IMG/VR virus record: IMGVR_UViG_3300045988_158927
Location: 1 to 64,000 of that record
Origin: a virus
Length of the DNA: 64,000 nt
Direction: 5' to 3' (one strand)
Below, one piece after another: positions 48,800 through 64,000 of this stretch. Under the pieces are notes generated by a model, which was given only the letters and a program-made list of their open reading frames with translations, was not told the DNA's origin and ran no database searches. The translations under genes and the position numbers were made by a program. Within the stretch, counting starts at the first letter, position 1, and the number at the start of each line of letters is the position of its first letter.

Positions 48800-48801
48800 G
48801 T

Positions 48802-49377: not shown

Positions 49378-50110
49378 ATGGGAACTGTCCCCCAGATATG
49401 GAAGCCGGTGGATTGCAGAGAAATACGGTCTACGCCGCTCTGATGTCCACCGGCATTACGTTTCTGAGGGCTGGAAGAAGTTCAAGGAACGCTTTACGCA
49501 GGCACTACCTGAAGAGGTTATAGATTCGATCATGGCCAAGCGCGACGACGAGGAACCGGACGAGATCAACACTTTTCCCGATGACGTTCTGTCAGTGGGA
49601 GGGAAATACGTGCCCGGCATGCACAAGGTCGCCTATAAGATCGGCCTGTTAGGTGGCACGCTCAAGGATTTGGCCGACGCTTTCGACGTGGCCGAAGGTA
49701 CTGTGGTCCGGTGGTGCAAGGAACATCAGGAATTCGGGGAGGCTGTCAAGCGCGCCCGGATGCTGGCTGATGCAAACGTGGCGCATTCCCTGTTCAAACG
49801 GGCGATGGGCTACCAGATAACAGAAATGAAAGTGGTGAATACGCAGAACGGGCCGGAAGTTTTCCCCATTGAAAAGGACGTGCTACCGGACGTGGCCGCT
49901 ATCAAATTCTGGCTGACAAACAGGCAGCCCCATCTTTGGAAAGATAAGGTTGAGGTAAGGGAGGAAGTAACCTTCAACGCCGCCAACCTTGAGAGGCAGC
50001 TAGAGGGCGTGTACGAGCGCGTTACCGAAGAGATCGAAGAGAAGCAGCGCGCCATTGAAGGACGGGCAGCGCGCCTTGGCTTTGACGTTGAAGATATCGA
50101 GGTGAAGTGA
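49349..50110 (+). CDS. terS: terminase small subunit (probable)
   Basis: HTH-like LKDLADAFDVAEGTVVRWCKEH, then KRAMGY...PDVAAIKFWLTNRQPHLWKDK. It lies immediately upstream of, and coupled to, terL. The start is uncertain. Confidence 0.55.
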   Translation: MTNWAAIRLEWELSPRYGSRWIAEKYGLRRSDVHRHYVSEGWKKFKERFTQALPEEVIDSIMAKRDDEEPDEINTFPDDVLSVGGKYVPGMHKVAYKIGLLGGTLKDLADAFDVAEGTVVRWCKEHQEFGEAVKRARMLADANVAHSLFKRAMGYQITEMKVVNTQNGPEVFPIEKDVLPDVAAIKFWLTNRQPHLWKDKVEVREEVTFNAANLERQLEGVYERVTEEIEEKQRAIEGRAARLGFDVEDIEVK

Positions 50111-51618
50111 TGGCGTTCATCCCGCTGCCAGAAGACCCGCGATGGCTGCCGTTTGTTGAGCGGTACGCCGGAAGCTGCTTCCGTTTTGCGGTCGAAGTGC
50201 TGAAGCTGAAGCCGTCCCTTCAACAGAAGGAATTGATGGATGCCGTCAGTGCCCCGGGTTGTCGTGTCAGCGTGGCGTCGGGGCACGGAACTGGGAAGTC
50301 GTTCAGTCTTTCTATCATCATCCCTTGGCTTCTCTTCACGCACTACAAGGCGTGGGTTCTCGTTACCGCCAACGATATCGACCAGATCAAGGCATCCACA
50401 CTGAAAGAGATTGCGTCACAAATCGGGCGCCTCAAAGAAGGCCCGTATGCGTGGCTGGCAGACAAGATCGAGCTGATGGCGTCCGGGGATTTGCGCGTCA
50501 GAGGGTATGAACAAAACTGGCTGATGGAGCTGAAGACCGCTAACGCCAAGAACGCCAACAAGATGGCCGGCCGTCACGCTAAATTCCTGACCATCATTGC
50601 CGATGAAGGTTCATCCATCCCGGATACCGTCATGATGACTCTGAACGGCGCGCTGACCGAAGCGGCTAACAGGTTCATCATCACTTCCCAGCCCACGAAG
50701 AATAGCGGCTTCTTCTACGATACCTTTAACCGCCTGAGCGAGCGTAACGGGGGGCATTGGCACAACATCACAATGTCATCCATCGATTCCCCGCACGTAT
50801 CGGATGAATCGTTGAAAACGCTATGGGCCATGTACGACGACGATGAGCGGCGCGTGCGCATTCTAGGGTTGTTCCCGCAGGATTCGGCCCGTTTCTTTGT
50901 TGGCAGAAAGGCCGTCGAGAACGCATACAAGCGCGGCAGGATCATCAACGCGAACGAGCACTACGGATACTTCATTTGCTGCGACATTGCATCCGGTGAG
51001 GGCTTGCGAGACAAGAGCGCGGTGTCGGTGTGTAGGGTGTATGGATACGGGGATGAGCGCCGTGTAGAGGTGGTGGACATTCCATTGTTCACGAACAACA
51101 TTCGGTCCAATCAGTTTGCCCATTACATTATCGAGGCGGCAGCGCCCTACCCTAACGTTACGTTCGTGGTGGACAGTGGCGGCCTCGGTATCAACGTCTG
51201 CCAAGACCTAGAGGACGCGGGGAAAATGGTCCAGCGCGTGAACTGGGGCAATCCGTGTTTCCGGAACGTGAACAAGGATCGGTACCTGAATTTGCGCGCT
51301 CAAGCCACGCATCAACTTGCCCGAGCAATCAAGGAAGGGCGATTTAGTGTGCTGACAAACGATCATCGGGCGGTGGGCCTTGATCAGGTATCGCGTATCC
51401 CGAAGACGTTCACCGATAAGGGGCGCTTGAGGGTTCCCCCAAAGCACGGCCCGGAATGGGAAGGGATGGGATCGCCTGACCTTGCCGATACGTGGGCATT
51501 CGCGTTCCTTGAGACTTCCACGTACACGGCCAGCGGCGAAAGTGTGAGCGACAAGACGATGATTTCAGCCGCCGAGGCAGCAACCGAAGAGGCCGCTAAT
51601 CTGTTCTCTGACCTTTAG
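50110..51618 (+). CDS. terL: terminase large subunit
   Basis: Walker A ASGHGTGKS, Walker B LTIIADEGS, C-terminal nuclease-like CCDIASGEG...VVDSGGLG. TGATG coupling to terS. Confidence 0.8.
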   Translation: MAFIPLPEDPRWLPFVERYAGSCFRFAVEVLKLKPSLQQKELMDAVSAPGCRVSVASGHGTGKSFSLSIIIPWLLFTHYKAWVLVTANDIDQIKASTLKEIASQIGRLKEGPYAWLADKIELMASGDLRVRGYEQNWLMELKTANAKNANKMAGRHAKFLTIIADEGSSIPDTVMMTLNGALTEAANRFIITSQPTKNSGFFYDTFNRLSERNGGHWHNITMSSIDSPHVSDESLKTLWAMYDDDERRVRILGLFPQDSARFFVGRKAVENAYKRGRIINANEHYGYFICCDIASGEGLRDKSAVSVCRVYGYGDERRVEVVDIPLFTNNIRSNQFAHYIIEAAAPYPNVTFVVDSGGLGINVCQDLEDAGKMVQRVNWGNPCFRNVNKDRYLNLRAQATHQLARAIKEGRFSVLTNDHRAVGLDQVSRIPKTFTDKGRLRVPPKHGPEWEGMGSPDLADTWAFAFLETSTYTASGESVSDKTMISAAEAATEEAANLFSDL

Positions 51619-51638
51619 AATGACGGGGTGTACACACA

Positions 51639-52130
51639 ATGGGGCACCCCATGAAGAACGTTCTATTCAAGTTTGAAACGCTGTCGGAGAATGATCCGGC
51701 GGCCAAGAAAATCAAAAGCGCCTTTCTGAAGCTCGGCTGCAACGTCGTGGAAATGGCAGTGGGCAAGCCTAAGCGTAGTGCTGGCGTGAGTTACAAGGAA
51801 TTCGACTTCACTTTTGCCGATTCCCAGCGCGTGACGGCCCGTATCAAGCCCACCGGAGACGTGTATCAAGTGCTGCTGAATGGCAGCGTTTTGCCGCTGA
51901 AGAATCAGGATGAGCACCAAAAGGCCATCGAGGAAATTGCGTCGAAGCTGGACGGTGGGCGCGCTGCATTCCAGAAGAAGCTGGCACGTACCAAAGTAAC
52001 TATCCCTGCTGGCATCCGTAACACGGTCAAGGAAACGGAGAAATCCCTGACCGAGAAGCGCGACGCTCTGAAAGAGGTTATTGCCGATCTCGATAAGAAG
52101 ATCGAGGAAGCCACCGAGGCGCTGAAATGA
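51639..52130 (+). CDS. hypothetical protein sharing a module with the next gene product
   Basis: VGKPKRSAGVSYKEFDFTFADSQRVTARI resembles VSKPFKKNGTAQVAVVYELADGQTIGIYF in the 776-aa protein. C-terminal coiled coil. The start could be 51639 or 51651. Confidence 0.5.
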   Translation: MGHPMKNVLFKFETLSENDPAAKKIKSAFLKLGCNVVEMAVGKPKRSAGVSYKEFDFTFADSQRVTARIKPTGDVYQVLLNGSVLPLKNQDEHQKAIEEIASKLDGGRAAFQKKLARTKVTIPAGIRNTVKETEKSLTEKRDALKEVIADLDKKIEEATEALK

Positions 52131-54457
52131 TTCACGGCCTAAAGATGCTGACCGAGGCGCAACGCAAGGCGCGCAACGGCAAGGTCCAGCGCACTACGTT
52201 CGGCCCGCTCTCGTTATGCGTGGAAATCCCGGCAGGCTGGAGGAAAGGGGCGTCGTTCCTGACGGCTCACTACGGCTACATTTCCGGCACGAAAGCCCCG
52301 GATGGCGCGGCTATCGATATGTTCCTGTCGCCGCAAGCAAGCGTGACGGCTGACGTGTTTGTCATCGACCATATGAAGGGCGGCAAATTCGACGAACCTA
52401 AAGTGTTCCTCGGGTTCACTTCCAAAGTGGATGCCGAGGAAACCTATCGGAATGTATACGCGCAACGTGCGCCAGCAACCAAAATGACGATGACGCAGTT
52501 TCAACAATGGATGAAGGAAGGGGGCGCAATGCAACCGACGATCAAGGAAGAACCTAAGCTTCAAAAAGTCTACTGGGACAGTAACGGAGACCCGGATGTC
52601 CCGATGACGGAAATTCTCTACCAAATCCGCAAGACCGACCCTACTAGCCTTGCGCTTGAGCCGCTGACGCTTGACGACATCTACGGCGACGCTGACGAAA
52701 TCGTGGAGCTTGATGCTCTGGTAGTGCCCATGATGCGCCTTGAGCGCGTGGCCGGCATCATGCAAAACCAGATGAAGCGGTACGGGTCCGAGGCGCTTAA
52801 CTTCCAAGTGAGCAAGCCATTCAAGAAGAACGGCACGGCTCAAGTGGCGGTTGTCTATGAGCTTGCCGACGGCCAGACGATCGGCATCTACTTCCACAAT
52901 CCGGACGTGACACCGGCCAAGATCGCGCCGCAAGATGAGCTGATTTCTTGGAAATGGATGCTCAACAAGAAGGACATTACGATCCTTGTGGCGCCGGAAA
53001 AAGGGCAGGATTTGGACCCGCGTGAAGTGATGCGCCGCGTGGCCAAGATCGCCATCAAAAATCGTCCGACGTTCGAGCGGAACAACGCTGCCCGCGTCGA
53101 GCGTGTGGCGCGTGTGGAGGCGCTTAAGGCTGAAATTGTCGTTCTTGAAAAGGAAGTGGACGACAAGACGCATGAGCTGGAAATTCTCCGCATGAAACTC
53201 GAAGAGAAGCGGAACATGCCGGCACCTGAACCTGAGCCCGCGCCTGAAGTGATGCCTGAACCTGAAGTTGCGAGCGGCTCGAATGATGCGCCTATTCAAG
53301 AAGTCAAGAAAGGTAGGATGAGTAAGTATGATCCGGCGGTGGCAGCAGCCCTAGAGGAAAAGATTGCTAACCTTAATAGATTTTCTGATGTCAGAGACCT
53401 TCAGACTGCTATCCGTGACGCTGAACTTTCGCGCAATGATAAAAAGCGAATCAAGGAGATGTTGGAGCAGCGTGTAAGCGATATGAACCATGAGCGGTAT
53501 CTGAAAAAACAGGAAATGCTTAAAGAATTTGGCGAGCAATTGAAAGCCGCTGAATTTGAAGAGGAATTGTCTTTGGTTGAGGCGTTCATTCACAAAATCC
53601 CGGGTATTGATGAAGAGCATATGTCGCATCTTTATACGAGTATTAGTGACAAGCGCAGAGAACTTCAAATAAAGAAGAAAGCGGAAGAACGCAAAGCCGC
53701 CGAACAAGCCAAGCAAGCCGAGCCCACGCCCGAAGATCCGAAGGAAGAAACCCGGGAAGAGCGCGTGACCCGTCTGCATGACGCGGTTATGGTCCTGATC
53801 AATTCGGCCACGTCCATCGAAGACATTCGGAAGCTGAAGAAATCCGCGACGTTCAATGAATTCCGCTATGTCACCGAGGACACTTCAAGGGCAGCCGATT
53901 TCAATCAGCAGCGCGAGAGCATCCGCACGGCTCTCTACACCAAGAGCGCGGAACTGAACATGCCGCTCTACAACGAGATCATGCGCGAGATTCAGGCGGC
54001 TACTAGTGAGGCTGGTGTTTTGACGGCGCTTGAGAAGGTCGAAATGGTCCGGAACGACTTCCCGCCAGCCCAGCGTAACGAGATCACGCAGGCCGCCGAG
54101 GCACGCATTGAGGCACTGAATGCCGTTCCTGAGCCGCAAGCTACGCCGCTGCCTGAAGTGCAGTCGCCTATGCCAGAGGAACCCGCGCCAGAACCCGTCC
54201 ATGAGCCGGCGCCAGAACCCGTCGCGGAACAACCAGCCGAGGCAGTGAATGCTACGCCGCTGAATGCCCTGGTTAACCCGCAAGAAGCCGCCGACCGGGC
54301 CTATCTCGAAACGTTCGACCCGGCCACCGCTGACGATGCGCGCTTGGAAGAGATTGCTGCCCGCTACACGTCCGGCGAGATGTTGGAACTGCTGGAAAAG
54401 GCTTTGGCCAAATACGAGGAATACATGGTGGCTGCTGCCGAGGAATCGATGAAGTGA
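52127..54457 (+). CDS. 776-aa multi-domain protein: pyrophosphatase-fold-like N-terminus, central module, long acidic helical C-terminus
   Basis: ATGA coupling. LCVEIPAG...AHYGYISGTKAPDGAAIDMFL...DEPKVFLGF echoes family I PPase VIEIPA...NYGYI...DGDPVDVLV, but the loop is shortened and one Asp is lost. E/K/P-rich tail. Confidence 0.5.
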   Translation: MIHGLKMLTEAQRKARNGKVQRTTFGPLSLCVEIPAGWRKGASFLTAHYGYISGTKAPDGAAIDMFLSPQASVTADVFVIDHMKGGKFDEPKVFLGFTSKVDAEETYRNVYAQRAPATKMTMTQFQQWMKEGGAMQPTIKEEPKLQKVYWDSNGDPDVPMTEILYQIRKTDPTSLALEPLTLDDIYGDADEIVELDALVVPMMRLERVAGIMQNQMKRYGSEALNFQVSKPFKKNGTAQVAVVYELADGQTIGIYFHNPDVTPAKIAPQDELISWKWMLNKKDITILVAPEKGQDLDPREVMRRVAKIAIKNRPTFERNNAARVERVARVEALKAEIVVLEKEVDDKTHELEILRMKLEEKRNMPAPEPEPAPEVMPEPEVASGSNDAPIQEVKKGRMSKYDPAVAAALEEKIANLNRFSDVRDLQTAIRDAELSRNDKKRIKEMLEQRVSDMNHERYLKKQEMLKEFGEQLKAAEFEEELSLVEAFIHKIPGIDEEHMSHLYTSISDKRRELQIKKKAEERKAAEQAKQAEPTPEDPKEETREERVTRLHDAVMVLINSATSIEDIRKLKKSATFNEFRYVTEDTSRAADFNQQRESIRTALYTKSAELNMPLYNEIMREIQAATSEAGVLTALEKVEMVRNDFPPAQRNEITQAAEARIEALNAVPEPQATPLPEVQSPMPEEPAPEPVHEPAPEPVAEQPAEAVNATPLNALVNPQEAADRAYLETFDPATADDARLEEIAARYTSGEMLELLEKALAKYEEYMVAAAEESMK

Positions 54458-54480
54458 TAGGGTGATGGCCTAAAATCAGA

Positions 54481-54512
54481 ACGGTCGGAAGAGATTCCGG
54501 CCGTTTTTTTTT
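54481..54512 (+). terminator. rho-independent terminator
   Basis: ACGGTCGGAA-gaga-TTCCGGCCGT followed by T9. Confidence 0.8.
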
Positions 54513-54533
54513 GCGCAAAAAAAGGAACATCCA

Positions 54534-57500
54534 ATGACAGTTATTGAGAAGCTGAAGCTGATCAAAAACCTGAAAGCTGCACAAGCCCTTCCCCGCGACA
54601 CGATCCCTCAACGCCTCGCACGAATCAAGGCCATCAAGGCCGCGCTTGATGCGCTCAAAGGGGCAAAGGCTGAGGAACGTACCGCCGAGAAGGAATCCGT
54701 AGAAGCAGCGTTCAAGTTTGATGCAGAACGCAAGACCGCCGAACGCAAGAAGGCCAATGATGCGGCCTATGCGCTGCTGCAAAGCCTCGATGAGGGCAAG
54801 ACACTCACCGAAGAAGAAAAGGCCGTGCTGGCAGCGTATAGCGGTTGCGGCGGCGGTCTGATCAACCCGCTTACCGGAAAGACGGGCAGCGCGACGGAAT
54901 ACTACACGCCGAAGCCTATCGTCTCGGGCATGTGGGACATGCTGGGCGAATCGTTCGGGTTCAAAGGCGGTAAAGTGCTGGACCCGAGTAGCGGTACCGG
55001 CATTTTTGGGGCGACGGCGCCAAAGGGTGTCGTTATGCAAAGCGTGGAAATCAGCGAGGTTTCCGGCAAGATCAACAAGGCGCTTAACTCGAAAACCGGC
55101 AATAACGTTGCCATCGAGCCGTTCGAGGGCTTCGCAGCGCGCACGCCTGACGGCACGTTCGATGCTCTGGTAACTAACGTTCCGTTCGGTGATTCCGGTA
55201 TCCGGACTGCCAAAGGAATGGACCAGAAATATCAGGATCAAAGCCTGCAAGGCTACTTCCTGCTGCGCGGCCTCGATAAGCTGAAGCCGGGCGGCCTGAT
55301 GGCCGTGATTCTGCCGGGTAGTGTCGTTGCCAATCGTGGGGCACGTGAAACCAAAGTGCGGACCATGATCAGCCTGAAGGCCGAATTTTGCGGCGCCATC
55401 CGCTTGCCTAACAGTGTCTTTGAGACAACCGGCGCTGACGTGATTACGGACGTTGCCGTATTCAAGAAACACGGGACTGACGCGGCTGAAAAGATTGATG
55501 CTCTTTTCCGTGCGGGAAAATCCGATGAACTGCGAGAAATGGGCGTTCTCTATGAGGAATTCATCGACGGCAATTGGTTCAAGGGCGAAGGACGCAAGTA
55601 CCTGCACGGCGAGGAAGTGACCGTTAACGGGCGCTGGGGCGAGACGCAGAAAGTCGTTTCAACCAAAAGCGTTACGGAAATCGGCCCCCTGCTGCGAGAG
55701 CTTCGCTTCAAATCGCGCATCAACTGGGATGCTCTGGGGGCGGCTGATGTAAGCCTTGCCTATGACGTGGGCGACGAGATTACGGCACCAGATGGCACAC
55801 TGATGCGCTGGGACGGTGAAACGTTCGTGGAGGTCCAGCGCGCCGAAGCGAAGGTCAACCCGTTTGCCAAGGTCATCGAGGCAATGGACCTGACCGCGCT
55901 TCAGTTCTACTACGCAGACTTCAGTGACGATGAGGTGGCCGGCGCGCTGCAATACGTTGCAGACAATAACGTATCCGTCAAACCATGGGTCAATACGCTG
56001 AACCTTGGCAAGCGCATTGATGTTCTCGTTTGCGCGGCCGTCGAAGCGTTCGATGAGAAAGCCCCGACCGATAACCTTGGTGAAGAGCATCCGCGCCTGA
56101 CCGAGGACGTGCAAGCTTCCATCAAGGCAGCACGCAACGTCACGCCGAAAGAGAGCGCGAAAGGCGTCTACAACCGATTCAAGGCGTTTACCGATAGTGG
56201 CGTTCTGTCGCCCGTTTGGTTCGGGCAGGTGGCCGAGCTGAAGACTATCGAGAGCAATGCAGCCAAATTCGAGGTCGCAAAAGGCAGTCAGAAATGGGTC
56301 GGCATCAATGAGATGCGCAAAGCCGGCATTGACGTTGACGGTGAAGAATTCGTCCACAACGGCGACAAGGTTGCGCTGATGGATGAGGTCTGCACTGGCA
56401 AGGCCGCTGAAGTTATCGAGGCACTGAAGAACGCTGACGTACCGCCTGAGCGCAAAGCCCGTCAGATCGCGCTTGCGATGGAACGTATCGAGAAAATCGA
56501 CGTTTCCAAGATGATCTTTACGCTTACGACGAAGTACGTGTCAGCGGATGCTAAGGCGGAATTCCTGACCCTGTACGTGAGCAAATCGAACTATTCAGGC
56601 TTCCAAGCGCATGATGACATTGTTGTGCTGCCGGCGTCTGAGGTAAAGTATGTAGCGTTCGGGAACGTTGACAAACTGTTCGTGCGCGCACTTGTCGGCT
56701 ACGTGAACGATGGTCGCGTGTCGTTCGGGAACCTGAAGATTGACGGCGTTTCTGATGATGAGCAAAAGCAGGCGAAGCGCGACCTTCTCGACGACTATCG
56801 TAAGTACCTGAACAAGCTTGATACGCAATTCAACCTGTGGGTTCACTCGAATCGTGCGCTGAAAACCGCGCTGGATATCCGCCTGAATTCGGCTGAGAAC
56901 GCCTTCTTCAAAACGCAAGCCAGCGACGGCCCGCTGACGATTCCCGGCCTGTCCGGTGATATCCAACTGCACGGCTATCAGCGCGCTTTCGTGCGCAAGA
57001 TCGCAGCGCGATTCAATGGCATCAACTCGTTCGATGTGGGCCTCGGCAAGAGTTTCACGGCACTGGCCAGCGTGCAGTATGCGCAAGCCATCGGCGCGAA
57101 GAAAAAGACCGTTTTCGTCGTGCCAAAGTCCGTCATCACAAACTGGGTGAAGGAAGCCAACCGCCTGTTTTCCGCTGACGTTGCCAATGACATTCTGGTA
57201 GTCGGTGCCGTCGAGAAGAAAGGAAAGCTTGACGTTGATTCCAAGCGATTCGACGCAGATTTGCAGCGCATCGCGGATAACGTTCACTCGAAGATTTTCA
57301 TGACGGCCGAAGCATTCCAGCGTATCCGCATCCGGGAAGAGGATGTTAAGGAATATCTGGACGCCATGCGCCTGAACGACCGCGATGCTTACGGGGACAA
57401 AATTTCTGACGCTGATAGCAATCGTGTAGAAAGCCGTCTGTATGCCATCGAGAAGATTCTCACGGAAGACGGCAAGAGCGAAGGCGCGCCGTTTTGGCAT

Positions 57501-60500
57501 ACGCTGGGCATTGATTCTGTCGTGTTCGATGAGATGCACGTGAACAAGAATGCCGTGATTGCCATCGGTGTGCGCGGCGCCAAATTCCTGTCGCTGCCGC
57601 CTGCATCCAAGAAATCCGTGGACGTGATGTGCAAGACTTGGCTGATCCGTCGTGACCATGGTTCCGGTGTGCTGGGCCTGACCGCTACGCCTATCACTAA
57701 CTCGCCGCTGGAAATCTACGGGATGATGTCCATCGTGGAAGGCATGGACGCAGTGAATGATGCGTGCGGCGTCGCTGGACCGGGCGATTTCATCAAGGAA
57801 TCTGTCATCGTCGAAAACCGTGCAGAACTCGGCGTGGACGGCGAAGAGCGGATGATGGATGTTTTCGTCGGCTTGAAAAACACGCAGATTCTGGCGCGTC
57901 TCGTTCGTGGCGTGTGCGATATCAAGACGGCCGCCGACGCCGGGAACATTGTCCAGCCTGACAGTGAAGAGGTGGTGCAAGGCGTGCCGCTGGATAACGA
58001 CACGGACCGGCAATTGCGTCGGATGATCCTTGCCTACCAGATCATGCAGGGGGCGGTTGACGCAGGCCCGGAAATCCCCGAGCGCGTGGCAGAGGTTTAT
58101 GGGTCCAAAGTCAAGACGCTGATGTCCCCGCTCAACCTTCTGTCGAATATGTCGAAACTGATGGTTGATGAGGACGCGGCCAAGAAACGCACGGTCTATA
58201 TCGGTGGTTCCGAAGAGCTTACGGAGAAATTCAACGGCCTGAAGATCAAGGAGAAACGCGCCTATGGCCCGCGCCTTGATGCAAGCGAGACGGTCAAAGT
58301 GACGGTCAATCCTGAAGACGAGGAAGACGTTGAATTCATCGTCCAGATTGGGGCAGTCTTCGATGGTGGAAAGACGATCATCGATACAACGTCATGGGAG
58401 ACTCAAGACAAATTCGAGGCACTTGCCGCGAAGCTTGACGTACCCTTGGACGTGAAGCCGTCGGAGAAATTCAAGGCCCTTATCGAGAACATGAAGGCCG
58501 AGGCTGCTAACGTGCGCGGCATCAAGAATGGCGAGCGCATCGAGCATGCCAAGCAGATCGTCTTCTGCGACATGCTGGCAACCCATAACAAACTGAAGCG
58601 GTTCATTTGCTCACGTATGGGCATCCCCGCCTCGGAGGTCATCATCGTTACGGGTCAGCGTAACGGTTCGCCTGAAGAAATTCAGGACGTGCAAGACGGG
58701 TTCAATGACGGACGCTATCGCATCATCATTGCCAACGAAAAGGCCGAGGTCGGCATCAACCTGCAAAAAGGCACGCAAGCTATCCATCACCTGACGATTG
58801 GATGGACTCCGGACAGTTTGCAGCAGCGTAACGGACGTGGCGTTCGGCAAGGTAACGAGACCGCGAAAGTGAACGTCTATTACTACGATGCCGAAGGTAC
58901 TTTCGACCAGATGAAGCGGTCAATGGTCAACAAGAAGGCCGACTGGATCGAGAAGGTAATGACGGGCGAAGGCCGCACGGTGGCCGTGAATGCCGGCCTG
59001 ACACGCGAGCAAATGGACGCGCTGATCGATGGTATGGGCGACGCCGAGAGCATTGCCAAAGCGCAAGCCCAAGCGGAAGAGAAAGCCAAGAAGGAAGCGC
59101 GTAACCGTGCCGTCACTCAACAGATGATCATGATTGAGGTTGCGCAAAAGAGCGAGGAAGAGCTGAAAAAGGCGGCCGATATGGCAAGCTGGGCCACGTC
59201 GATGATCAACAAGCTTATTACGCCGATCAATCAGCAACTGGAAGTCTCGCGCAAGCAATTGGCACTGTCTCGCAGTGATAAGACCAAGGAACGGCTTACG
59301 CAGACCATTGCCGAGCTTGAGAAGCGGCAGGGTGAAATCAGGACGCGCTATCGGAACTATTCTGATCCGTCCGTGCGTGAGGAATGGCAAAACGACATTG
59401 AGGCGCTGCAAGATAGCGTCAAGAGCGCCAATGAGCAGGTGGAGAACCTGTCTGGCGATGGCGGCCTGAATGAACGTGAAATCCAGCACGTCAAGGACGG
59501 AGAGTTCTTCAGGGTTGGCGATGAACTTGCTTTCCCGGGTCAGTTTGTCATGACCAAAAACGACGGTATCGGGGTTGTCGTGAAGAACATCAGGAAATCC
59601 CTTTGCCTCGCAACTCTTCGCAAGGATGATAGCCGGCGTTCCGCTGCCTTGGATACCTCCCCGGTCGGCATGGAGCGACTGATCGATGAGGATAAGGTTC
59701 CTCACGACATTCTGAAAGAGTTTGCCAAGATCGATACGTATCAGGCGATGCAGGAAGAGGAAAGAACGTTCGAGACCGTTAAGGCGATCACGCAATACAC
59801 GCAGGTTGTCGCCAAATGGAAGGGCGACCTTGCTAACGTTCTGTGGAAAGAGGGCGTACCCGTTCTGATGATGGGTTCCTACGGTTATCCGCTGTTCGGG
59901 ATTAGCCGTGATGCGCATCGGGATTCCGTCATCAATTACGATCCGTATAGCGTCGCCACGCTCAAAGATGATGGCACATGGACCGAGGTTGACATTGAAA
60001 CGACGGCTGCTGCTGCCGCGCAATATCTGATCTCGATTGATGCTGTTATGAGCGATTTGATGGTGGTACGGAACGAGAAATTCCGGAAGCTTCTGTCCCA
60101 GAACATCGAGAACCATTACCTCAAAGACCCGGCCATCGTTGAGCAGGCAATCGAACTGGCCAAGCAGGAATACTCGTCATACCGTTACGGTAGCTACGAC
60201 ATTCCAAAAGTGGCGCGGATGCTTTCAATCCTTGGCCTTCGACGTGCGGCAAAACTGCACTACAACCTCTATTCGGCAGAGGATTTCCCGGGCGTGGAAT
60301 CGATGCAGGGTCAGATGGAAGTGTTCGTCAAACAGGCCCGCGAAGAGGAGGAGCGCGTTAATCAGGAATGGGAGGAGAAGAAACGGCGAGAGCGCGAAGA
60401 GGCGGAAGCCAAGGCAGCACAAGATGCGGCGAACATGGAGAAATGGGTGTCCGAGGGCTTCCCGGCTGATCAGGAATTCGGCATCACTGGATTCCGCACG

Positions 60501-60674
60501 TTCGGCTTTAAGGATCGGATCAAGCAGGCTGAACAAGAGGCAGGCGGTAAAGCCCGCTGGCACGGTGACAGCAAGCAATGGATCATTCACGGGAAGGCGC
60601 TGGACAAACTGTTCAAGGATGAATCGTTTGCCGATGCCGTCAAGGAAAAAGAGCTGATCATCAAGCCCGTCTGA
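54534..60674 (+). CDS. polyvalent protein: N6-adenine DNA methyltransferase + SNF2/SF2 helicase + ~600-aa C-terminal region (P1 DarB-like)
   Basis: MTase motif X EYYTPKPIV, motif I VLDPSSGTGIFG (nt ~54975), motif IV LVTNVPFG (nt ~55176). Helicase motifs: LHGYQRAF...DVGLGKSF, FDEMH (57528), LTATPITNSP, QQRNGRGVRQG (~58821). Confidence 0.8.
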   Translation: MTVIEKLKLIKNLKAAQALPRDTIPQRLARIKAIKAALDALKGAKAEERTAEKESVEAAFKFDAERKTAERKKANDAAYALLQSLDEGKTLTEEEKAVLAAYSGCGGGLINPLTGKTGSATEYYTPKPIVSGMWDMLGESFGFKGGKVLDPSSGTGIFGATAPKGVVMQSVEISEVSGKINKALNSKTGNNVAIEPFEGFAARTPDGTFDALVTNVPFGDSGIRTAKGMDQKYQDQSLQGYFLLRGLDKLKPGGLMAVILPGSVVANRGARETKVRTMISLKAEFCGAIRLPNSVFETTGADVITDVAVFKKHGTDAAEKIDALFRAGKSDELREMGVLYEEFIDGNWFKGEGRKYLHGEEVTVNGRWGETQKVVSTKSVTEIGPLLRELRFKSRINWDALGAADVSLAYDVGDEITAPDGTLMRWDGETFVEVQRAEAKVNPFAKVIEAMDLTALQFYYADFSDDEVAGALQYVADNNVSVKPWVNTLNLGKRIDVLVCAAVEAFDEKAPTDNLGEEHPRLTEDVQASIKAARNVTPKESAKGVYNRFKAFTDSGVLSPVWFGQVAELKTIESNAAKFEVAKGSQKWVGINEMRKAGIDVDGEEFVHNGDKVALMDEVCTGKAAEVIEALKNADVPPERKARQIALAMERIEKIDVSKMIFTLTTKYVSADAKAEFLTLYVSKSNYSGFQAHDDIVVLPASEVKYVAFGNVDKLFVRALVGYVNDGRVSFGNLKIDGVSDDEQKQAKRDLLDDYRKYLNKLDTQFNLWVHSNRALKTALDIRLNSAENAFFKTQASDGPLTIPGLSGDIQLHGYQRAFVRKIAARFNGINSFDVGLGKSFTALASVQYAQAIGAKKKTVFVVPKSVITNWVKEANRLFSADVANDILVVGAVEKKGKLDVDSKRFDADLQRIADNVHSKIFMTAEAFQRIRIREEDVKEYLDAMRLNDRDAYGDKISDADSNRVESRLYAIEKILTEDGKSEGAPFWHTLGIDSVVFDEMHVNKNAVIAIGVRGAKFLSLPPASKKSVDVMCKTWLIRRDHGSGVLGLTATPITNSPLEIYGMMSIVEGMDAVNDACGVAGPGDFIKESVIVENRAELGVDGEERMMDVFVGLKNTQILARLVRGVCDIKTAADAGNIVQPDSEEVVQGVPLDNDTDRQLRRMILAYQIMQGAVDAGPEIPERVAEVYGSKVKTLMSPLNLLSNMSKLMVDEDAAKKRTVYIGGSEELTEKFNGLKIKEKRAYGPRLDASETVKVTVNPEDEEDVEFIVQIGAVFDGGKTIIDTTSWETQDKFEALAAKLDVPLDVKPSEKFKALIENMKAEAANVRGIKNGERIEHAKQIVFCDMLATHNKLKRFICSRMGIPASEVIIVTGQRNGSPEEIQDVQDGFNDGRYRIIIANEKAEVGINLQKGTQAIHHLTIGWTPDSLQQRNGRGVRQGNETAKVNVYYYDAEGTFDQMKRSMVNKKADWIEKVMTGEGRTVAVNAGLTREQMDALIDGMGDAESIAKAQAQAEEKAKKEARNRAVTQQMIMIEVAQKSEEELKKAADMASWATSMINKLITPINQQLEVSRKQLALSRSDKTKERLTQTIAELEKRQGEIRTRYRNYSDPSVREEWQNDIEALQDSVKSANEQVENLSGDGGLNEREIQHVKDGEFFRVGDELAFPGQFVMTKNDGIGVVVKNIRKSLCLATLRKDDSRRSAALDTSPVGMERLIDEDKVPHDILKEFAKIDTYQAMQEEERTFETVKAITQYTQVVAKWKGDLANVLWKEGVPVLMMGSYGYPLFGISRDAHRDSVINYDPYSVATLKDDGTWTEVDIETTAAAAAQYLISIDAVMSDLMVVRNEKFRKLLSQNIENHYLKDPAIVEQAIELAKQEYSSYRYGSYDIPKVARMLSILGLRRAAKLHYNLYSAEDFPGVESMQGQMEVFVKQAREEEERVNQEWEEKKRREREEAEAKAAQDAANMEKWVSEGFPADQEFGITGFRTFGFKDRIKQAEQEAGGKARWHGDSKQWIIHGKALDKLFKDESFADAVKEKELIIKPV

Positions 60675-60732
60675 TTGACGTAACGAGGGGGCGCCGATAT
60701 GATGAAGCGTCCCCTTTGCGGAGATTGAAACC

Positions 60733-61101
60733 ATGGATATCGAAGAGATCAAAGAGAACTTTGCGTACACCGAAGACGTTGCGAAGGGCTGGCGTGATTA
60801 CTACCAGATGGACGACGCAGACACCGAGCGCGTGGCCAAAGTGATTGCAGGCCGCATCAGCGACAAGAAGACGGATTACCGTAACTACGGCCCTTGGTGG
60901 TGGCCCGTCAAGCGTGCATTGATCGCGCAAGGGCTGGCGGCGGGATACGTGGATGAGGAAGTAGCCGATGCTCTGTCGTTCGGGAATGGACTGGACGACA
61001 TGCTTTGCGGCGACGCCTACAGAACGTCGTTCCTCGGGTCCAGCATCGCGGAGACGAAACAGCACGGCCAATACGTCATCCATGATCCGGACATGGAATA
61101 G
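60733..61101 (+). CDS. hypothetical protein
   Basis: RBS GCGGAG, 122 aa, followed by a terminator. Confidence 0.55.
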   Translation: MDIEEIKENFAYTEDVAKGWRDYYQMDDADTERVAKVIAGRISDKKTDYRNYGPWWWPVKRALIAQGLAAGYVDEEVADALSFGNGLDDMLCGDAYRTSFLGSSIAETKQHGQYVIHDPDME

Positions 61102-61125
61102 TAAGCAGCCGAAGGGTTAGAATCT

Positions 61126-61151
61126 AAGCGCCTGTAGTTTGGGCGCTTTTT
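61126..61151 (+). terminator. rho-independent terminator
   Basis: AAGCGCC-9 nt loop-GGCGCTT followed by TTT. Confidence 0.6.
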
Positions 61152-61174
61152 CATTTGCAAATGAGGAAAAGACA

Positions 61175-61894
61175 ATGGATTTGACTAGCTATCTGCGCCA
61201 AGATCGGCGCGTGAAATTCGATTCGGCCAAAGCAGAAAAGGCCGTCGTGGCCCGGGCTGAGCAAGAGAATGAAGACCTGAACCCTGCCGACAAGAATTCC
61301 ATTCTGGACGCTGCCGCCGACTACGCTACCCGAGATATCGGGCTGGCTGCCGTCAATGCCGTGCGCGAATGGGCAGAGACCGATGATCTCGATGCCGGCG
61401 AAACTGCTGCCGACCGCCTGATTGCTCTGTTCATCGGCATCGCTGACGAAGATAAGGATGGCGAAATCACGCCGGAGGAACAGGACCTGCTGGAGATCGC
61501 GCTGGAAGCGGCCTATGACTATCTGCTGAATCTGGGTGTGCCTGAAGACGATGTTTCGGCACTGCTGAATGACTTTGAGCCGGAAGTAGCAGACCGAGTT
61601 CTGGAGCTTGTTATCTCTTCGCTGCCTGAAGGCGATGCCGCCGACGCTGACGTGGATTCCTACGTGTTCGGTGAAGACGAGGATGAAGGCGCGGCGCTGG
61701 ATGCCGTCTACAAGAAAAAACTGGTGGTGCGTAACGGCAAGAAAGTGCGCATCAACAAGCGCGTGAGCGGTACCGTGCGCCTGTCTGCCAAGCAGAAAGT
61801 GGCCATCAAAAAGGCGCGCCTGAAGTCGCACAATGCGCGTGCTATGCTTAAGCGTGCCAAGAGCATGCGCAAGCGCAAGCAAATGGGTTTGTGA
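61175..61894 (+). CDS. protein with acidic body and strongly basic tail (scaffold/internal-protein-like, speculative)
   Basis: RBS AGGAAAAG then ATG at 61175. D/E-rich for 190 aa, then KKKLVVRNGKKVRINKR...KKARLKSHNARAMLKRAKSMRKRKQ. Confidence 0.5.
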   Translation: MDLTSYLRQDRRVKFDSAKAEKAVVARAEQENEDLNPADKNSILDAAADYATRDIGLAAVNAVREWAETDDLDAGETAADRLIALFIGIADEDKDGEITPEEQDLLEIALEAAYDYLLNLGVPEDDVSALLNDFEPEVADRVLELVISSLPEGDAADADVDSYVFGEDEDEGAALDAVYKKKLVVRNGKKVRINKRVSGTVRLSAKQKVAIKKARLKSHNARAMLKRAKSMRKRKQMGL

Positions 61895-61916
61895 TAGCGT
61901 TCTGACCTAGGACGCC

Positions 61917-61944
61917 GGGGAGGCTTGTGCCTCCCCTTTTTTTT
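61917..61944 (+). terminator. rho-independent terminator
   Basis: GGGGAGGC-ttgt-GCCTCCCC followed by T8. Confidence 0.85.
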
Positions 61945-61952
61945 ACCCGTAC

Positions 61953-61979
61953 CGATTGTTTCGATAATCGAGACAATCG
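61953..61979. promoter_or_regulatory. 27-bp near-perfect palindrome (operator-like)
   Basis: CGATTGTTTCGAT A ATCGAGACAATCG, 12 of 13 positions symmetric. It lies between a terminator and the next RBS. Confidence 0.5.
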
Positions 61980-62011
61980 ATTGTTACGCAAAACGGAACA
62001 ATGAGGAAGAA

Positions 62012-62824
62012 ATGGCAATTACTGTCTCTCACTCGGCCGTCAAAGAAAAGCGCGACGTGCCGAAACGCGAACGCCTCGGCAGCCAATGGGACGGCCTGAA
62101 TACAAACCTGCTGGCGACGTTCTTTGAAGTCGAGAAGGTGGGCAGCGAGTACAAGCGCAAAGAGGGCCTGTATGTAGTTGCGCCGCTCACGGATGCGAGC
62201 TGCGAACTCACCCAAAACTGGACATCGCCCTTTGAGCAATCCGGCGTAGACCAAAGCGCCCCCTACCTGACCGCCATGCTTCAGACTGGCGGGCTTTCGC
62301 AAGTGGTGGACGCGGTGGGATCGGCCCTTGGATTCGAGGGAGACGGCGGGATGGCGAACGAGGCGCTCAAGCAGGCGCAAGGCCGGTCAAGCGTGACGAA
62401 GCTTAACAGCACGCAAATTTTCAGCGGGATGCCACCGGTCAAATTCAGCGTAACGGCCCTTTTCCGGGCGTGGTCGAATGCCCGGGATGAGGTCGAGCGC
62501 CCCATGGAAAAACTCGTGGAATGGTCCCTGCCGAAGGCCATCGTCAACGAAGGAACCCTGATCGAACGGGGGGTTCAAATCCAGAAAGGCAGCGCCGATT
62601 GGTGGTCGGCCATCATGCCCAGCAAGGCCCCTTGTCTGGTAGGAATGACGTACAAGGGGCGCACTTGGATGCCCATGGTCATCGAATCAATCAGCATCCC
62701 GATTGCGTCCAACGTGACGGGTTCCGGGGAGTTTGTAGAGCTGGCAATCCCGATGACGCTGGCCACGCTGACGGCTATTGACGCGAAAGACTGGACGGCT
62801 ACGAGCGTCAATCATGGCCGATAG
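62012..62824 (+). CDS. probable virion structural protein
   Basis: RBS GAGGAAG then ATG at 62012; the track start at 61925 lies inside the terminator. 270 aa, beta-rich. Function unassigned. Confidence 0.5.
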   Translation: MAITVSHSAVKEKRDVPKRERLGSQWDGLNTNLLATFFEVEKVGSEYKRKEGLYVVAPLTDASCELTQNWTSPFEQSGVDQSAPYLTAMLQTGGLSQVVDAVGSALGFEGDGGMANEALKQAQGRSSVTKLNSTQIFSGMPPVKFSVTALFRAWSNARDEVERPMEKLVEWSLPKAIVNEGTLIERGVQIQKGSADWWSAIMPSKAPCLVGMTYKGRTWMPMVIESISIPIASNVTGSGEFVELAIPMTLATLTAIDAKDWTATSVNHGR

Positions 62825-62847
62825 ACTGCACAAAACATAGGCAATTC

Positions 62848-62871
62848 AGCCCGCCGAGTGCGGGCTTTTTT
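62848..62871 (+). terminator. rho-independent terminator
   Basis: AGCCCGC-cgagt-GCGGGCT followed by TTTTT. Confidence 0.85.
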
Positions 62872-62946
62872 GTGCCCGTCGCCGGCATCATCCGCAACGA
62901 TTGGCGACGATTGGCTATGAGTGGGCAATCACGATAAGCAATGTTA

Positions 62947-63842: not shown

Positions 63843-64000
63843 ATGAACAAGCCGTCCCTTTCCTACCTGCCCGCCTGTATGTCTTTCCGGACCCTTCGCG
63901 CCAAGAGCGACGCCTACCTGATCGGATTCCTTGGGGGCTTCGATGACGTGGACGCCATCCGTGCGGCGCTGGCGAAGTTTCGCGGCGCTTCCTATGTCCA
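63843..64000 (+). CDS. hypothetical protein, C-terminus outside the window
   Basis: RBS GAGG 6 nt before the ATG. MNKPSLSYLPACMSFRTLRAKSDAYLIGFLGGFDDVDAIRAALAKFRGASYV..., open to the window end. Confidence 0.5.
   Translation, partial: MNKPSLSYLPACMSFRTLRAKSDAYLIGFLGGFDDVDAIRAALAKFRGASYV

What the first reader, a model, noticed from the sequence alone, without database searches (positions are those of the whole stretch)
54534..60674. 2046-aa methyltransferase + SNF2 helicase polyvalent protein placed just after the terminase genes
One ORF combines a gamma-class N6-adenine MTase (EYYTPKPIV, VLDPSSGTGIFG, NVPF) with a complete SF2/SNF2 helicase core (GLGKS, DEMH, TATP, QQRNGRGVRQG). About 600 further residues have unknown function. 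This is the architecture of phage P1 DarB, a capsid-packaged protein injected with the DNA to block type I restriction. It is also the architecture of polyvalent proteins of conjugative elements. Here the gene has its own terminator-bounded unit in the packaging and structural arm. That placement suggests a virion-delivered anti-defence effector.
Basis: partly seen in the sequence, partly recalled or inferred. Interest (0 to 1): 0.7.

Follow-up and report, generated by a model that had tools for sequence, protein, structure and literature searches.

The report
DarB-like anti-restriction protein in phage
This giant gene is a distant relative of phage P1's DarB, a protein carried inside the virus head to protect incoming DNA from host restriction enzymes, and it sits with three partner genes of the same system, so it is a new example of a known thing, not a new kind.

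Summary
The protein has a gamma-class N6-adenine methyltransferase (residues 117-321) and a complete SNF2-type SF2 helicase (about 801-1500).

It belongs to the P1 DarB family. It matches P1 DarB at E about 1e-69 and 1e-67 and has the same Pfam domain order. Its catalytic motifs are invariant or nearly so in 122 aligned family members, P1 DarB included.

The gene sits in a collinear Dar cassette: TerS, TerL, Hdf-like, DarA-like (InPase + DarA_N), DarB-like, Ulx-like, then P1 gp21-like and PmgG-like genes. The same cassette occurs in Xanthomonas phage Rb1 and in prophages of Vreelandella, Burkholderia and Tolumonas. At least 654 homologues exist.

Three corrections:
- Two Dar genes lie between the terminase and this gene.
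- A canonical terminator lies upstream. Downstream there is only a hairpin without a U-run, and the next terminator follows the ulx-like gene.
- About 1000 residues, not 600, lack an assigned function.

The one unusual feature is an orphan C-terminal segment (about 1640-1968). It replaces the family's usual C-terminal module but keeps the conserved 65-residue tail. Verdict: new member of a known kind, modest interest.

The parts
49313..50110 (+). Small terminase subunit. The metagenome gene call starts at 49349.
   Evidence: phrog_309 terminase small subunit, E 6.7e-36; gene call in L005.
50107..51618 (+). Large terminase subunit, homologue of P1 PacB.
   Evidence: P1 PacB tblastn 31% identity, E 1e-61; phrog_2.
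51639..52130 (+). Hdf-like protein, 163 aa, with DarA_N as its only domain.
   Evidence: Pfam DarA_N 1.5e-11; phrog_1620 Hdf-like 1.5e-39; P1 Hdf tblastn E 4e-5; alignment with P1 Hdf and three prophage homologues.
52127..54457 (+). DarA-like internal head protein, 776 aa: InPase domain (10-130), DarA_N (194-313), then about 460 unassigned residues. No DarA_C domain.
   Evidence: Pfam InPase 6.6e-22 and DarA_N 1e-37; P1 DarA tblastn E 7e-15. P1 DarA has DarA_N plus DarA_C and no InPase.
54478..54516 (+). Intrinsic terminator between darA-like and darB-like: 13-bp stem, 4-nt loop, T9.
   Evidence: fold of the 51-nt stretch 54470-54520: -20.2 kcal/mol, z -4.5.
54534..60674 (+). DarB-family polyvalent protein, 2046 aa (the finding).
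54534..54881 (+). Residues 1-116. Two poorly conserved N-terminal helices occupy the position of P1 DarB's capsid-targeting signal. They are followed by an LPD36-like region with the GxGU motif (YSGCGGGL, 102-109).
   Evidence: G104, G106 and G107 invariant in 122 sequences; helices H3-17 and H21-43 in the model; residues 1-50 show 17% identity to the family; LPD36 as defined in PMC5512222.
54882..55496 (+). Residues 117-321: gamma-class (EcoKI/TaqI-like) N6-adenine DNA methyltransferase. TP motif at 122-130, motif I at 148-159, motif IV NVPF at 215-218.
   Evidence: Pfam N6_Mtase 4.8e-13; PDB sequence hits to type I M subunits; Foldseek hits to M.TaqI, HsdM and M.BseCI; NVPF in 122 of 122 sequences.
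55497..56933 (+). Residues 322-800: family-conserved middle region with no assigned function.
   Evidence: Hits all 121 family proteins at about 27% identity; invariant W485, W562, G564, G610, G622, R756, W769; well folded in the model; no solved-structure match beyond the methyltransferase; aligns to other phage polyvalent proteins in BFVD.
56934..59033 (+). Residues 801-1500: SNF2-type SF2 helicase/translocase with helical inserts. Motif I GLGKS 836-840, II DEMH 999-1002, III TATP 1050-1053, V 1398-1411, VI 1431-1440.
   Evidence: Pfam SNF2-rel_dom, ResIII and Helicase_C; motifs conserved in 122 sequences including P1 DarB.
59034..60437 (+). Residues 1501-1968: charged helical linker followed by an orphan segment (about 1640-1968) that replaces the family's usual C-terminal module.
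   Evidence: No homologue outside its own 86-97% identical cluster among 1.84 billion representatives (query 1700-2046); 116 of 120 relatives share a different C-terminal region of about 480 aa; AlphaFold2 pLDDT below 50; no fold match.
60438..60644 (+). Residues 1969-2037: conserved C-terminal tail domain (G-I-T-G...KDRIK...G-x-A-x-W...K-x-W).
   Evidence: A profile built from 119 family tails without the query scores 35 bits, E 5e-13; pLDDT about 82. The family consensus resembles DUF5710 only below threshold (E 0.03).
60685..60716 (+). GC-rich hairpin directly after the darB-like stop codon, followed by only UUU. Possibly a weak terminator or an RNA-stabilising element. It overlaps a promoter-like match at 60675-60703.
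   Evidence: 61-nt stretch 60672-60732: -24.7 kcal/mol, z -4.7.
60733..61101 (+). Ulx-like protein, 122 aa.
   Evidence: phrog_1629 Ulx-like 7.3e-13; P1 Ulx tblastn E 4e-4; alignment with P1 Ulx and four homologues that follow DarB-like genes, sharing YRxYGPxW and a D-x-D-x-E C-terminal end.
61126..61156 (+). Terminator-like hairpin with a T-run after the ulx-like gene. Probable end of the darB-ulx unit.
   Evidence: The fold is only weakly better than shuffles (z -1.9).
61139..61894 (+). P1 gp21-like structural protein. The metagenome gene call starts at 61175.
   Evidence: P1 gp21 tblastn 36% identity, E 1.4e-15; phrog_1053.
61925..62824 (+). PmgG-like morphogenesis protein. The metagenome gene call starts at 62012.
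   Evidence: phrog_1114 PmgG-like, E 8.9e-48.

Best explanation
The ORF encodes a DarB-family polyvalent protein. It is the large enzymatic component of a P1-type 'defence against restriction' (Dar) system in an uncultivated phage of about 90 kb that is distantly related to P1.

Proposed mechanism:

1. The cassette hdf-like, darA-like, darB-like, ulx-like lies in the morphogenesis region next to the terminase genes and is presumably expressed with them (inferred from position).

2. The Hdf-like and DarA-like proteins, both carrying DarA_N domains, line the inside of the capsid and recruit the others. The Ulx-like protein helps load the DarB-like protein, which enters the prohead through its N-terminal region (inferred from P1).

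3. On infection the protein is ejected with the DNA and acts only in cis on that DNA. Its SNF2-type motor translocates along the entering duplex. The fused N6-adenine methyltransferase methylates it, or the complex occludes it or displaces host enzymes. Either way type I (and possibly BREX) systems cannot restrict it. This mechanism is unresolved even for P1. The invariance of both catalytic motif sets across the family argues that both activities are used.

Shown here: homology, domain integrity, cassette synteny. Inferred: packaging, ejection, target systems, biochemical mode.
For: - Homology to P1 DarB in two blocks: P1 residues 47-391 at 40% identity (E 2.5e-67) and 777-1610 at 28% (E 1.8e-69).
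- Identical Pfam order and spacing in the two proteins.
- phrog_11801 matches over residues 8-1588 at 1155 bits, and phrog_10089 'DarB-like antirestriction' at 264 bits.
- EYYTP, NVPF, the GLGK of helicase motif I, and the D, E and H of motif II are invariant in all 122 aligned family members including P1 DarB; TATP and QRNGRG are invariant or nearly so.
- The neighbours are Hdf-, DarA- and Ulx-like, and ulx follows darB exactly as in P1.
- The same order, DarA_N protein, InPase+DarA_N protein, DarB-like, Ulx-like, is found in Xanthomonas phage Rb1 and in Vreelandella, Burkholderia and Tolumonas prophages.
- Literature: P1 Dar proteins are head-internal and co-ejected; DarB is present at about 40-45 copies with an N-terminal capsid-targeting sequence (PMC9024508, PMC12810830). 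Dar acts in cis against type I systems and BREX (PMC12707154). The DarB-like gp69 of podovirus JC1 was detected in purified virions (PMC9144972). The methylase-helicase dyad is described as a class of injected polyvalent proteins (PMC5512222).
Against: - No DdrA or DdrB homologue was found in the window or in the 6.7 kb beyond it, and P1 needs DdrB for full DarB function. About 19 kb of the contig was not available.
- The N-terminal 50 residues show no similarity to P1 DarB's capsid-targeting sequence.
- The C-terminal 450 residues are unrelated to those of P1 DarB or of most relatives.
- The DarA-like protein lacks DarA_C.
- Overall identity to P1 DarB is only 28-40% over about 45-55% of the length.
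- There are no experimental data for this phage, and its host is unknown.
Confidence: 0.8

Rival explanations
1. It is a cytoplasmic phage methyltransferase-translocase that is not packaged. It would methylate replicating or progeny phage DNA late in infection, giving self-protection like an orphan Dam or P1 Dmt, with the helicase providing processivity.
For: Both catalytic motif sets are intact. The methyltransferase fold matches true DNA adenine methyltransferases. No packaging signal can be recognised by sequence.
Against: The gene lies between head-internal Dar homologues and directly upstream of the ulx-like gene. Experimentally studied family members (P1 DarB, JC1 gp69) are virion proteins (PMC9024508, PMC9144972). 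P1 Dar protection works only in cis (PMC12707154), which pre-methylation of progeny would not explain.
Confidence: 0.1
2. It is part of a phage-borne defence or exclusion system (DISARM-, BREX- or type I/III-like) that targets competing phages, not an anti-defence effector.
For: PADLOC gives partial matches to DrmD (3.7e-15), BrxHII, ZorD, DpdE and type I methyltransferase models. Pairing of a methyltransferase with an SNF2 helicase also occurs in DISARM.
Against: The hits are weak (about 50 bits) and cover only single domains, against 1155 bits for the DarB-type PHROG. No nuclease, PLD, DUF1998, PglZ or specificity-subunit partner is present; the neighbours have no PADLOC hits and are Dar proteins. 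The gene sits in the morphogenesis region.
Confidence: 0.04
3. It is a polyvalent protein of a conjugative or integrative element, not of a phage, and is delivered through a type IV secretion system.
For: The same methyltransferase-helicase dyad occurs in conjugative-element polyvalent proteins (PMC5512222).
Against: The surrounding genes are terminase subunits, P1 gp21- and PmgG-like proteins and tail-fibre-like proteins, and the contig is about 90 kb. [quoted passage not shown] No relaxase or T4SS gene was recognised among the window ORFs screened.
Confidence: 0.02

Closest known systems
Phage P1/P7 DarB (2255 aa) and the P1 Dar system (Hdf, DarA, DdrA, DdrB, DarB, Ulx)
   Same: Same LPD36-like region, TP motif, NVPF methyltransferase, about 480-aa middle region and SNF2 helicase, in the same order and spacing. 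EYYTPKPI and NVPFG are identical, and all helicase motifs are shared. An ulx homologue follows immediately downstream. Hdf and DarA homologues are present. The terminase is PacB-like.
   Different: Identity is only 28-40%. The C-terminal region is unrelated to P1's 640-aa C-terminus, and the N-terminal 50 residues are unrelated to the P1 capsid-targeting sequence. The four Dar genes form one cassette right after the terminase, whereas P1 splits them into a darB-ulx unit and a separate hdf-darA-ddrA-ddrB unit. The DarA-like protein has an N-terminal InPase domain and no DarA_C. No DdrA or DdrB was found in the sequence examined.
DarB-like proteins of proteobacterial P1-like prophages and Xanthomonas phage Rb1 (about 2100-2250 aa; P0002-P0120, phrog_11801)
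   Same: These are the closest relatives: 36-40% identity over residues about 60-1600. They share the cassette of Hdf-like, InPase+DarA_N, DarB-like and Ulx-like genes and the C-terminal tail domain.
   Different: 116 of 120 share a conserved C-terminal module of about 480 aa that this protein lacks. In them a P1 Prt-like portal gene follows ulx and a PAAR gene sits inside the cassette. Here the cassette follows TerL, and gp21- and PmgG-like genes come next. This protein is about 100 aa shorter.
Giant DarB-like polyvalent proteins of Bcep22-like podoviruses (for example JC1 gp69, 4515 aa; phrog_10089)
   Same: They share the methyltransferase-helicase dyad (phrog_10089, E 2.5e-78), are encoded in the morphogenesis module and are virion-associated by proteomics (PMC9144972).
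   Different: Those proteins are twice as long and carry many more domains. They belong to podoviruses with no Hdf, DarA or Ulx partners described.
Type I R-M HsdM and M.TaqI gamma-class adenine methyltransferases; DISARM DrmD and other SNF2 defence helicases
   Same: The catalytic folds and motifs are shared.
   Different: There is no specificity subunit, nuclease or other defence partner. The two activities are fused in one virion-type polypeptide.

Membership tests
DarB family (adenine methylase-SNF2 helicase dyad of phage polyvalent proteins, as defined in PMC5512222) | N-terminal LPD36 region with a GxGU motif upstream of the methyltransferase | tested here: met
   YSGCGGGL at 102-109. 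Y102, G104, G106 and G107 are invariant or nearly so in 122 family sequences, and P1 DarB has YTGEGG. No LPD36 profile was available, so the test is by motif and alignment only.
DarB family (adenine methylase-SNF2 helicase dyad of phage polyvalent proteins, as defined in PMC5512222) | EcoKI/TaqI-like gamma-class N6-adenine methyltransferase with a TP-motif helix, motif I and an N-x-P-(F/Y) motif IV | tested here: met
   Pfam N6_Mtase 4.8e-13. EYYTP at 122-126, DPSSGTG at 150-156, NVPF at 215-218, the last in 122 of 122 sequences. Structural matches to M.TaqI, HsdM and M.BseCI.
DarB family (adenine methylase-SNF2 helicase dyad of phage polyvalent proteins, as defined in PMC5512222) | SWI2/SNF2-clade SF2 helicase fused C-terminally, with intact motifs I-VI | tested here: met
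   SNF2-rel_dom 1.2e-6, ResIII 5e-5, Helicase_C 4e-7. Motifs I, Ia, II, III, V and VI are conserved with P1 DarB and the family. Assignment to the SNF2 clade specifically rests on a modest Pfam score and on the family description in PMC5512222.
DarB family (adenine methylase-SNF2 helicase dyad of phage polyvalent proteins, as defined in PMC5512222) | Significant sequence homology to P1 DarB itself | tested here: met
   tblastn E 1.8e-69 and 2.5e-67, covering P1 residues 47-391 and 777-1610.
DarB family (adenine methylase-SNF2 helicase dyad of phage polyvalent proteins, as defined in PMC5512222) | C-terminal region homologous to that of P1 DarB or of the main prophage clade | tested here: not met
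   There is no similarity to the P1 C-terminus or to the 480-aa module shared by 116 of 120 relatives; only the last 65 residues or so are shared. This region varies within the family, so it does not define membership.
P1-type Dar system (virion-internal multiprotein anti-restriction system) | Hdf homologue (single DarA_N domain) | tested here: met
   51639-52130: DarA_N 1.5e-11, phrog_1620 1.5e-39, P1 Hdf E 4e-5.
P1-type Dar system (virion-internal multiprotein anti-restriction system) | DarA homologue (DarA_N plus DarA_C) | tested here: inconclusive
   52127-54457 has DarA_N (1e-37) and matches P1 DarA at E 7e-15. It has no DarA_C and carries an extra N-terminal InPase domain. The same InPase+DarA_N layout is found in relatives.
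P1-type Dar system (virion-internal multiprotein anti-restriction system) | Ulx homologue immediately downstream of darB | tested here: met
   60733-61101: phrog_1629 7.3e-13, P1 Ulx E 4e-4, shared YRxYGPxW motif.
P1-type Dar system (virion-internal multiprotein anti-restriction system) | DdrA and DdrB homologues | tested here: not met
   tblastn with P1 DdrA and DdrB found nothing in the 64-kb window or in L005, which reaches 6.7 kb beyond it. No ddrB-ParB domain was seen in the ORFs scanned. About 19 kb of the 89.7-kb contig could not be examined.
P1-type Dar system (virion-internal multiprotein anti-restriction system) | N-terminal capsid-targeting sequence on DarB | tested here: inconclusive
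   The N-terminal 50 residues are helical but unrelated in sequence to P1's first 30 residues. P1 Dar proteins themselves share no consensus (PMC9024508), so sequence cannot decide this.
P1-type Dar system (virion-internal multiprotein anti-restriction system) | Incorporation into virions, co-ejection with the DNA, and cis-acting protection from type I R-M | not testable with these tools
   Needs virion proteomics and plating assays. Known for P1 (PMC9024508, PMC12810830, PMC12707154).
Defence systems with a methyltransferase and an SNF2 helicase (DISARM, BREX, type I/III R-M) | Full-length match to a system component, plus the system's other genes nearby | tested here: not met
   Only single-domain matches of about 50 bits to DrmD, BrxHII and MTase_I. 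The neighbours have no PADLOC hits.
Conjugative-element polyvalent proteins | Context of relaxase, T4SS or conjugative transfer genes | tested here: not met
   The context is terminase, Dar head proteins and tail or baseplate homologues.

The most novel reading that the evidence does not exclude
The family has a conserved chassis (residues 1 to about 1600) and a conserved 65-residue tail. Between them lies a replaceable module, and here it is filled by an orphan segment of about 330 residues (about 1640-1968) with no detectable homologue outside its own cluster among 1.84 billion representative proteins. The most novel reading not excluded is that this slot is a swappable 'warhead' or specificity module. 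It could retarget the injected DarB machine to a different host defence, or to a different partner in place of the missing DdrB. The segment would then be a new anti-defence domain.
Probability: 0.2. Interest if true: 0.5.

Novelty: new member of a known kind. Interest (0 to 1): 0.3.

Why it matters
The mechanism of DarB is still unknown nearly 40 years after its discovery. It is unclear whether DarB methylates, translocates or merely shields the entering DNA.

This locus adds a compact, single-cassette version of the Dar system (hdf, darA, darB, ulx, apparently without DdrA or DdrB) from a phage far from P1. With its more than 650 relatives it shows that both catalytic motif sets are invariant or nearly so across the family, which argues for an enzymatic mechanism. 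It also shows that the C-terminal region is exchangeable between a fixed core and a fixed tail, which marks where specificity may reside.

In practice it flags this uncultivated phage as carrying a capsid-delivered anti-restriction system. It could also offer a second N-terminal capsid-targeting system for protein delivery. None of this is surprising to a specialist: the architecture, the DarA_N and InPase partners and the virion association were all described by 2017-2022.

Tried and rejected
- Near-identical DNA: megablast of 48000-64000 against phages and of 40000-64000 against plasmids found nothing.
- A pattern scan of 185,579 species genomes found no close relative, so the host stays unknown.
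- Profile searches of the unassigned parts: Pfam on residues 1-116, 322-800, 941-1336 and 1591-2046 gave only sub-threshold noise (UBQLN1, RNase_H_2, Urease_beta, PT-VENN). I rejected these.
- phmmer of residues 1700-2046 against 1.84 billion representatives found only an 86%-identical fragment.
- AlphaFold2 of residues 1630-2046 with a two-sequence alignment gave pLDDT 49. Its Foldseek search gave nothing with E below 0.06, so I drew no conclusion from it.
- Foldseek of the good 1-810 model matched only the methyltransferase domain in the PDB. The long BsaXI alignment has an rmsd of 25 A and was disregarded.
- The tail domain: the family consensus hits DUF5710 at E 0.03 (14.5 bits against a cut-off of 26.5). 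I treat this as a lead only. A resemblance to the P1 DarB tail is visible by eye but not supported by the profile.
- PF28555, listed for many homologues, is labelled 'Helicase_dom' in the gene tables, not an effector domain; it is not in the local Pfam copy.
- The defence-system reading was tested with PADLOC and rejected.
- P1 DdrA, DdrB, Prt, gp23, ParA/B and RepA have no tblastn match in the window.
- Piya et al. 2017 (PMC6011833) is not held. One paper search failed because a term was too short.

Full report
**Observation**

The window contains one uninterrupted ORF at 54534-60674(+). It has 2046 codons, an ATG start and an AGGA ribosome-binding site 8 nt upstream. Stop codons are expected at 4.2% of codons given the window's base composition. 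An open frame of this length therefore has a chance probability of about 1e-38.

- EYYTPKPIV at residue 122
- VLDPSSGTGIFG at 148
- NVPF at 215-218
- GLGKS at 836-840
- DEMH at 999-1002
- TATP at 1050-1053
- QQRNGRGVRQG at 1430

Pfam places N6_Mtase at 117-321 (4.8e-13), SNF2-rel_dom/ResIII at 810-941 and Helicase_C at 1337-1440. The closest solved sequences are type I M subunits. An AlphaFold2 model of residues 1-810, built with 48 homologues, has mean pLDDT 81. It superposes on M.TaqI, HsdM, M.BseCI, CamA and PacII over the methyltransferase domain only.

**What it is**

PHROGs places residues 8-1588 in phrog_11801 (1155 bits) and also hits phrog_10089, 'DarB-like antirestriction'. tblastn against 50,697 phage records finds Xanthomonas phage Rb1 best (39% identity over 73% of the query). 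P1, P7, D6, SJ46 and RCS47 DarB follow at about 34%.

A local tblastn of 74 P1 proteins against the window gives two DarB blocks. P1 residues 47-391 match at 40% identity (E 2.5e-67). P1 residues 777-1610 match at 28% (E 1.8e-69). P1 DarB has the same Pfam order and spacing.

I aligned 122 family members: the query, 120 database homologues and P1 DarB. EYYTP, NVPF, the GLGK of helicase motif I, and the D, E and H of motif II are invariant. TATP and QRNGRG are invariant or nearly so. So is the GxGG motif of the N-terminal region that PMC5512222 calls LPD36. NVPF, rather than the canonical NPPF, is therefore a family signature and not a defect of this protein.

The family is large. At least 654 proteins match at E <= 1e-10, most of them 2100-2250 aa. 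They come from Halomonas/Vreelandella, Burkholderia, Tolumonas, Nitrosomonas, Pseudomonas-group and Pusillimonas genomes and from many metagenomes.

The genes on either side are the partners of DarB in the P1 Dar system. The order is as follows.

| Coordinates | Product | Key evidence |
|---|---|---|
| 49313-50110 | TerS | phrog_309, 6.7e-36 |
| 50107-51618 | TerL | P1 PacB, E 1e-61 |
| 51639-52130 | Hdf-like, 163 aa | Pfam DarA_N 1.5e-11; phrog_1620 1.5e-39; P1 Hdf E 4e-5 |
| 52127-54457 | DarA-like, 776 aa | InPase at 10-130; DarA_N at 194-313 (1e-37); P1 DarA E 7e-15; no DarA_C |
| 54534-60674 | DarB-like, 2046 aa | see above |
| 60733-61101 | Ulx-like, 122 aa | phrog_1629 7.3e-13; P1 Ulx E 4e-4; shared YRxYGPxW motif |
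| 61139-61894 | P1 gp21-like | E 1.4e-15 |
| 61925-62824 | PmgG-like | phrog_1114 |

In P1, ulx also follows darB directly, but hdf-darA-ddrA-ddrB form a separate unit elsewhere. No DdrA or DdrB homologue was detected in the window or in the 6.7 kb beyond it. About 19 kb of the 89.7-kb contig could not be read.

The same cassette occurs in the isolated Xanthomonas phage Rb1 and in prophages of Vreelandella aquamarina, Burkholderia anthina and Tolumonas. In each, a small DarA_N protein and a large InPase+DarA_N protein precede a DarB-like gene, which is followed by an Ulx-like gene of about 137-141 aa. In one of them (the Vreelandella prophage, L007) the large protein is fused to a DdrB-ParB domain, and in the three prophages a PAAR gene is interposed. 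In the three prophages a P1 Prt-like portal gene follows ulx.

The exact protein sequence is found on metagenome contigs of up to 89.7 kb, ENA ERZ27263189 and Logan ERR589669. No near-identical DNA exists in the phage or plasmid collections. No close relative was found among species-representative genomes.

**Transcription-unit claim**

A canonical intrinsic terminator lies at 54478-54516, between the darA-like and darB-like genes. It has a 13-bp stem followed by T9, and the 51-nt stretch around it folds at -20.2 kcal/mol with z -4.5.

Directly after the darB-like stop codon there is a strong hairpin at 60685-60716. The 61-nt stretch containing it folds at -24.7 kcal/mol (z -4.7, 0 of 200 shuffles as stable). 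It is followed by only UUU and overlaps a promoter-like match.

The next canonical terminator-like site (61126-61148) follows the ulx-like gene. The likely unit is therefore darB plus ulx. The 'own terminator-bounded unit' claim is only partly right.

**Anatomy of the unassigned residues**

- Residues 1-50 are two poorly conserved helices. They occupy the position where P1 DarB carries its 30-residue capsid-targeting sequence, but they are unrelated to it in sequence (PMC9024508).
- Residues 322-800 are conserved across the whole family at about 27% identity, with invariant Trp, Gly and Arg positions. They are confidently folded. They match no solved structure, but they align to other phage polyvalent proteins in BFVD.
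- Residues from about 1500 onward diverge. The relatives share a C-terminal module of about 480 aa (116 of 120). P1 DarB has its own unrelated 640 aa. This protein has neither.
- phmmer of residues 1700-2046 against 1.84 billion representatives finds only an 86%-identical fragment. AlphaFold2 cannot fold the segment (pLDDT below 50), and Foldseek finds nothing.
- The last 65 residues or so (1969-2037) are conserved. A profile built from 119 family tails without the query scores 35 bits (E 5e-13), and this is the only confident part of the C-terminal model. The family consensus of this tail resembles DUF5710 only below threshold.

The protein is therefore a conserved 1600-residue chassis plus a conserved tail, with a replaced module between them. 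About 1000 residues lack an assigned function, not 600.

**Mechanism**

By homology with P1, the DarA_N proteins (Hdf and DarA) line the inner capsid at the pentons and are needed to load the other Dar proteins. Ulx aids DarB loading. DarB is present at about 40-45 copies and is ejected with the DNA. Protection against type I systems and BREX works only in cis (PMC9024508, PMC12810830, PMC12707154). A DarB-like protein was also found by proteomics in virions of podovirus JC1 (PMC9144972).

I therefore infer that this protein is packaged and ejected. I also infer that it acts on the entering genome through SNF2-type translocation coupled to N6-adenine methylation or to occlusion or displacement of host enzymes, as proposed in PMC5512222. 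The near-complete invariance of both catalytic motif sets across 122 sequences supports an enzymatic role. The exact mode is unresolved even for P1.

**Rivals**

- A non-packaged, Dam-like self-methylase is possible but fits poorly with the Dar context and with cis-only protection.
- A defence-system reading was tested with PADLOC. It gave only single-domain matches of about 50 bits to DrmD, BrxHII and MTase_I, with no partner genes.
- A conjugative-element origin is excluded by the phage context.

**Verdict**

This is a new, divergent member of the DarB family within a recognisable Dar cassette, a kind already described in the literature. The modestly unusual points are:
- the single-cassette arrangement right after the terminase
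- the apparent lack of DdrA and DdrB
- the orphan C-terminal segment

Noticed in passing
window 52127-54457 (+): The DarA-like protein carries an N-terminal type I inorganic-pyrophosphatase-like (InPase) domain ahead of DarA_N, lacks DarA_C, and has about 460 unassigned C-terminal residues. The same InPase+DarA_N layout recurs in Rb1 ('internal head protein') and in three prophages. It suggests an enzymatic cargo on the capsid-lining Dar protein.
   Followed up: partly
window 60685-60716 (+): A very stable GC-rich hairpin lies between the darB-like stop codon and the ulx-like start codon (the 61-nt stretch 60672-60732 folds at -24.7 kcal/mol, z -4.7, 0 of 200 shuffles as stable). It lacks a U-run and overlaps a sigma-70-like promoter match at 60675-60703. 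Its role (attenuator, RNA stabiliser or processing site) is unknown.
   Followed up: partly
window 31388-32089 (+) and 34508-35290 (+): A dUTPase-like gene (phrog_135, 2.2e-54) and a thymidylate-synthase-like gene (phrog_85, 1.9e-36) lie in the early or replication region. Such pairs sometimes mark phages that make modified pyrimidines, which would be a second anti-restriction layer.
   Followed up: no
window 2681-7672 (+) and 14-2677 (+): A 1663-aa protein has no PHROG match and only a weak right-handed beta-helix hit. It follows an 887-aa coiled-coil protein with tail-fibre-like matches. These are probably tail spike or fibre genes of an unusual kind.
   Followed up: partly
proteins P0030, P0056, P0075, P0079, P0093-P0095, P0116, P0118: Several DarB-family homologues are about 2500-2600 aa long and carry intein or homing-endonuclease Pfam domains (PF14890, PF14528, PF07591). 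Inteins have evidently invaded this gene family.
   Followed up: no
L007 5978-9988; L008 4068-4355; L009 7052-7342: In related prophages a PAAR-motif gene sits inside the Dar cassette. In L007 the DarA-like protein is also fused to a P1 DdrB-like N-terminal (ddrB-ParB) region at 43% identity. The Dar components appear to be shuffled and fused differently in each lineage.
   Followed up: partly
proteins P0041, P0072, P0097: Three other family members among the top 120 also lack the common 480-aa C-terminal module. Replacement of this module therefore recurs in the family, though rarely.
   Followed up: partly
window 47667-48716 (+), 12849-14132 (-), 20579-25422 (+): The window also holds a RecT-like single-strand annealing protein, an exonuclease, a primase-like protein (870 aa) and an SF2 helicase (769 aa) whose ORFs overlap by about 80 nt. 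No tRNA genes are present in the window.
   Followed up: no
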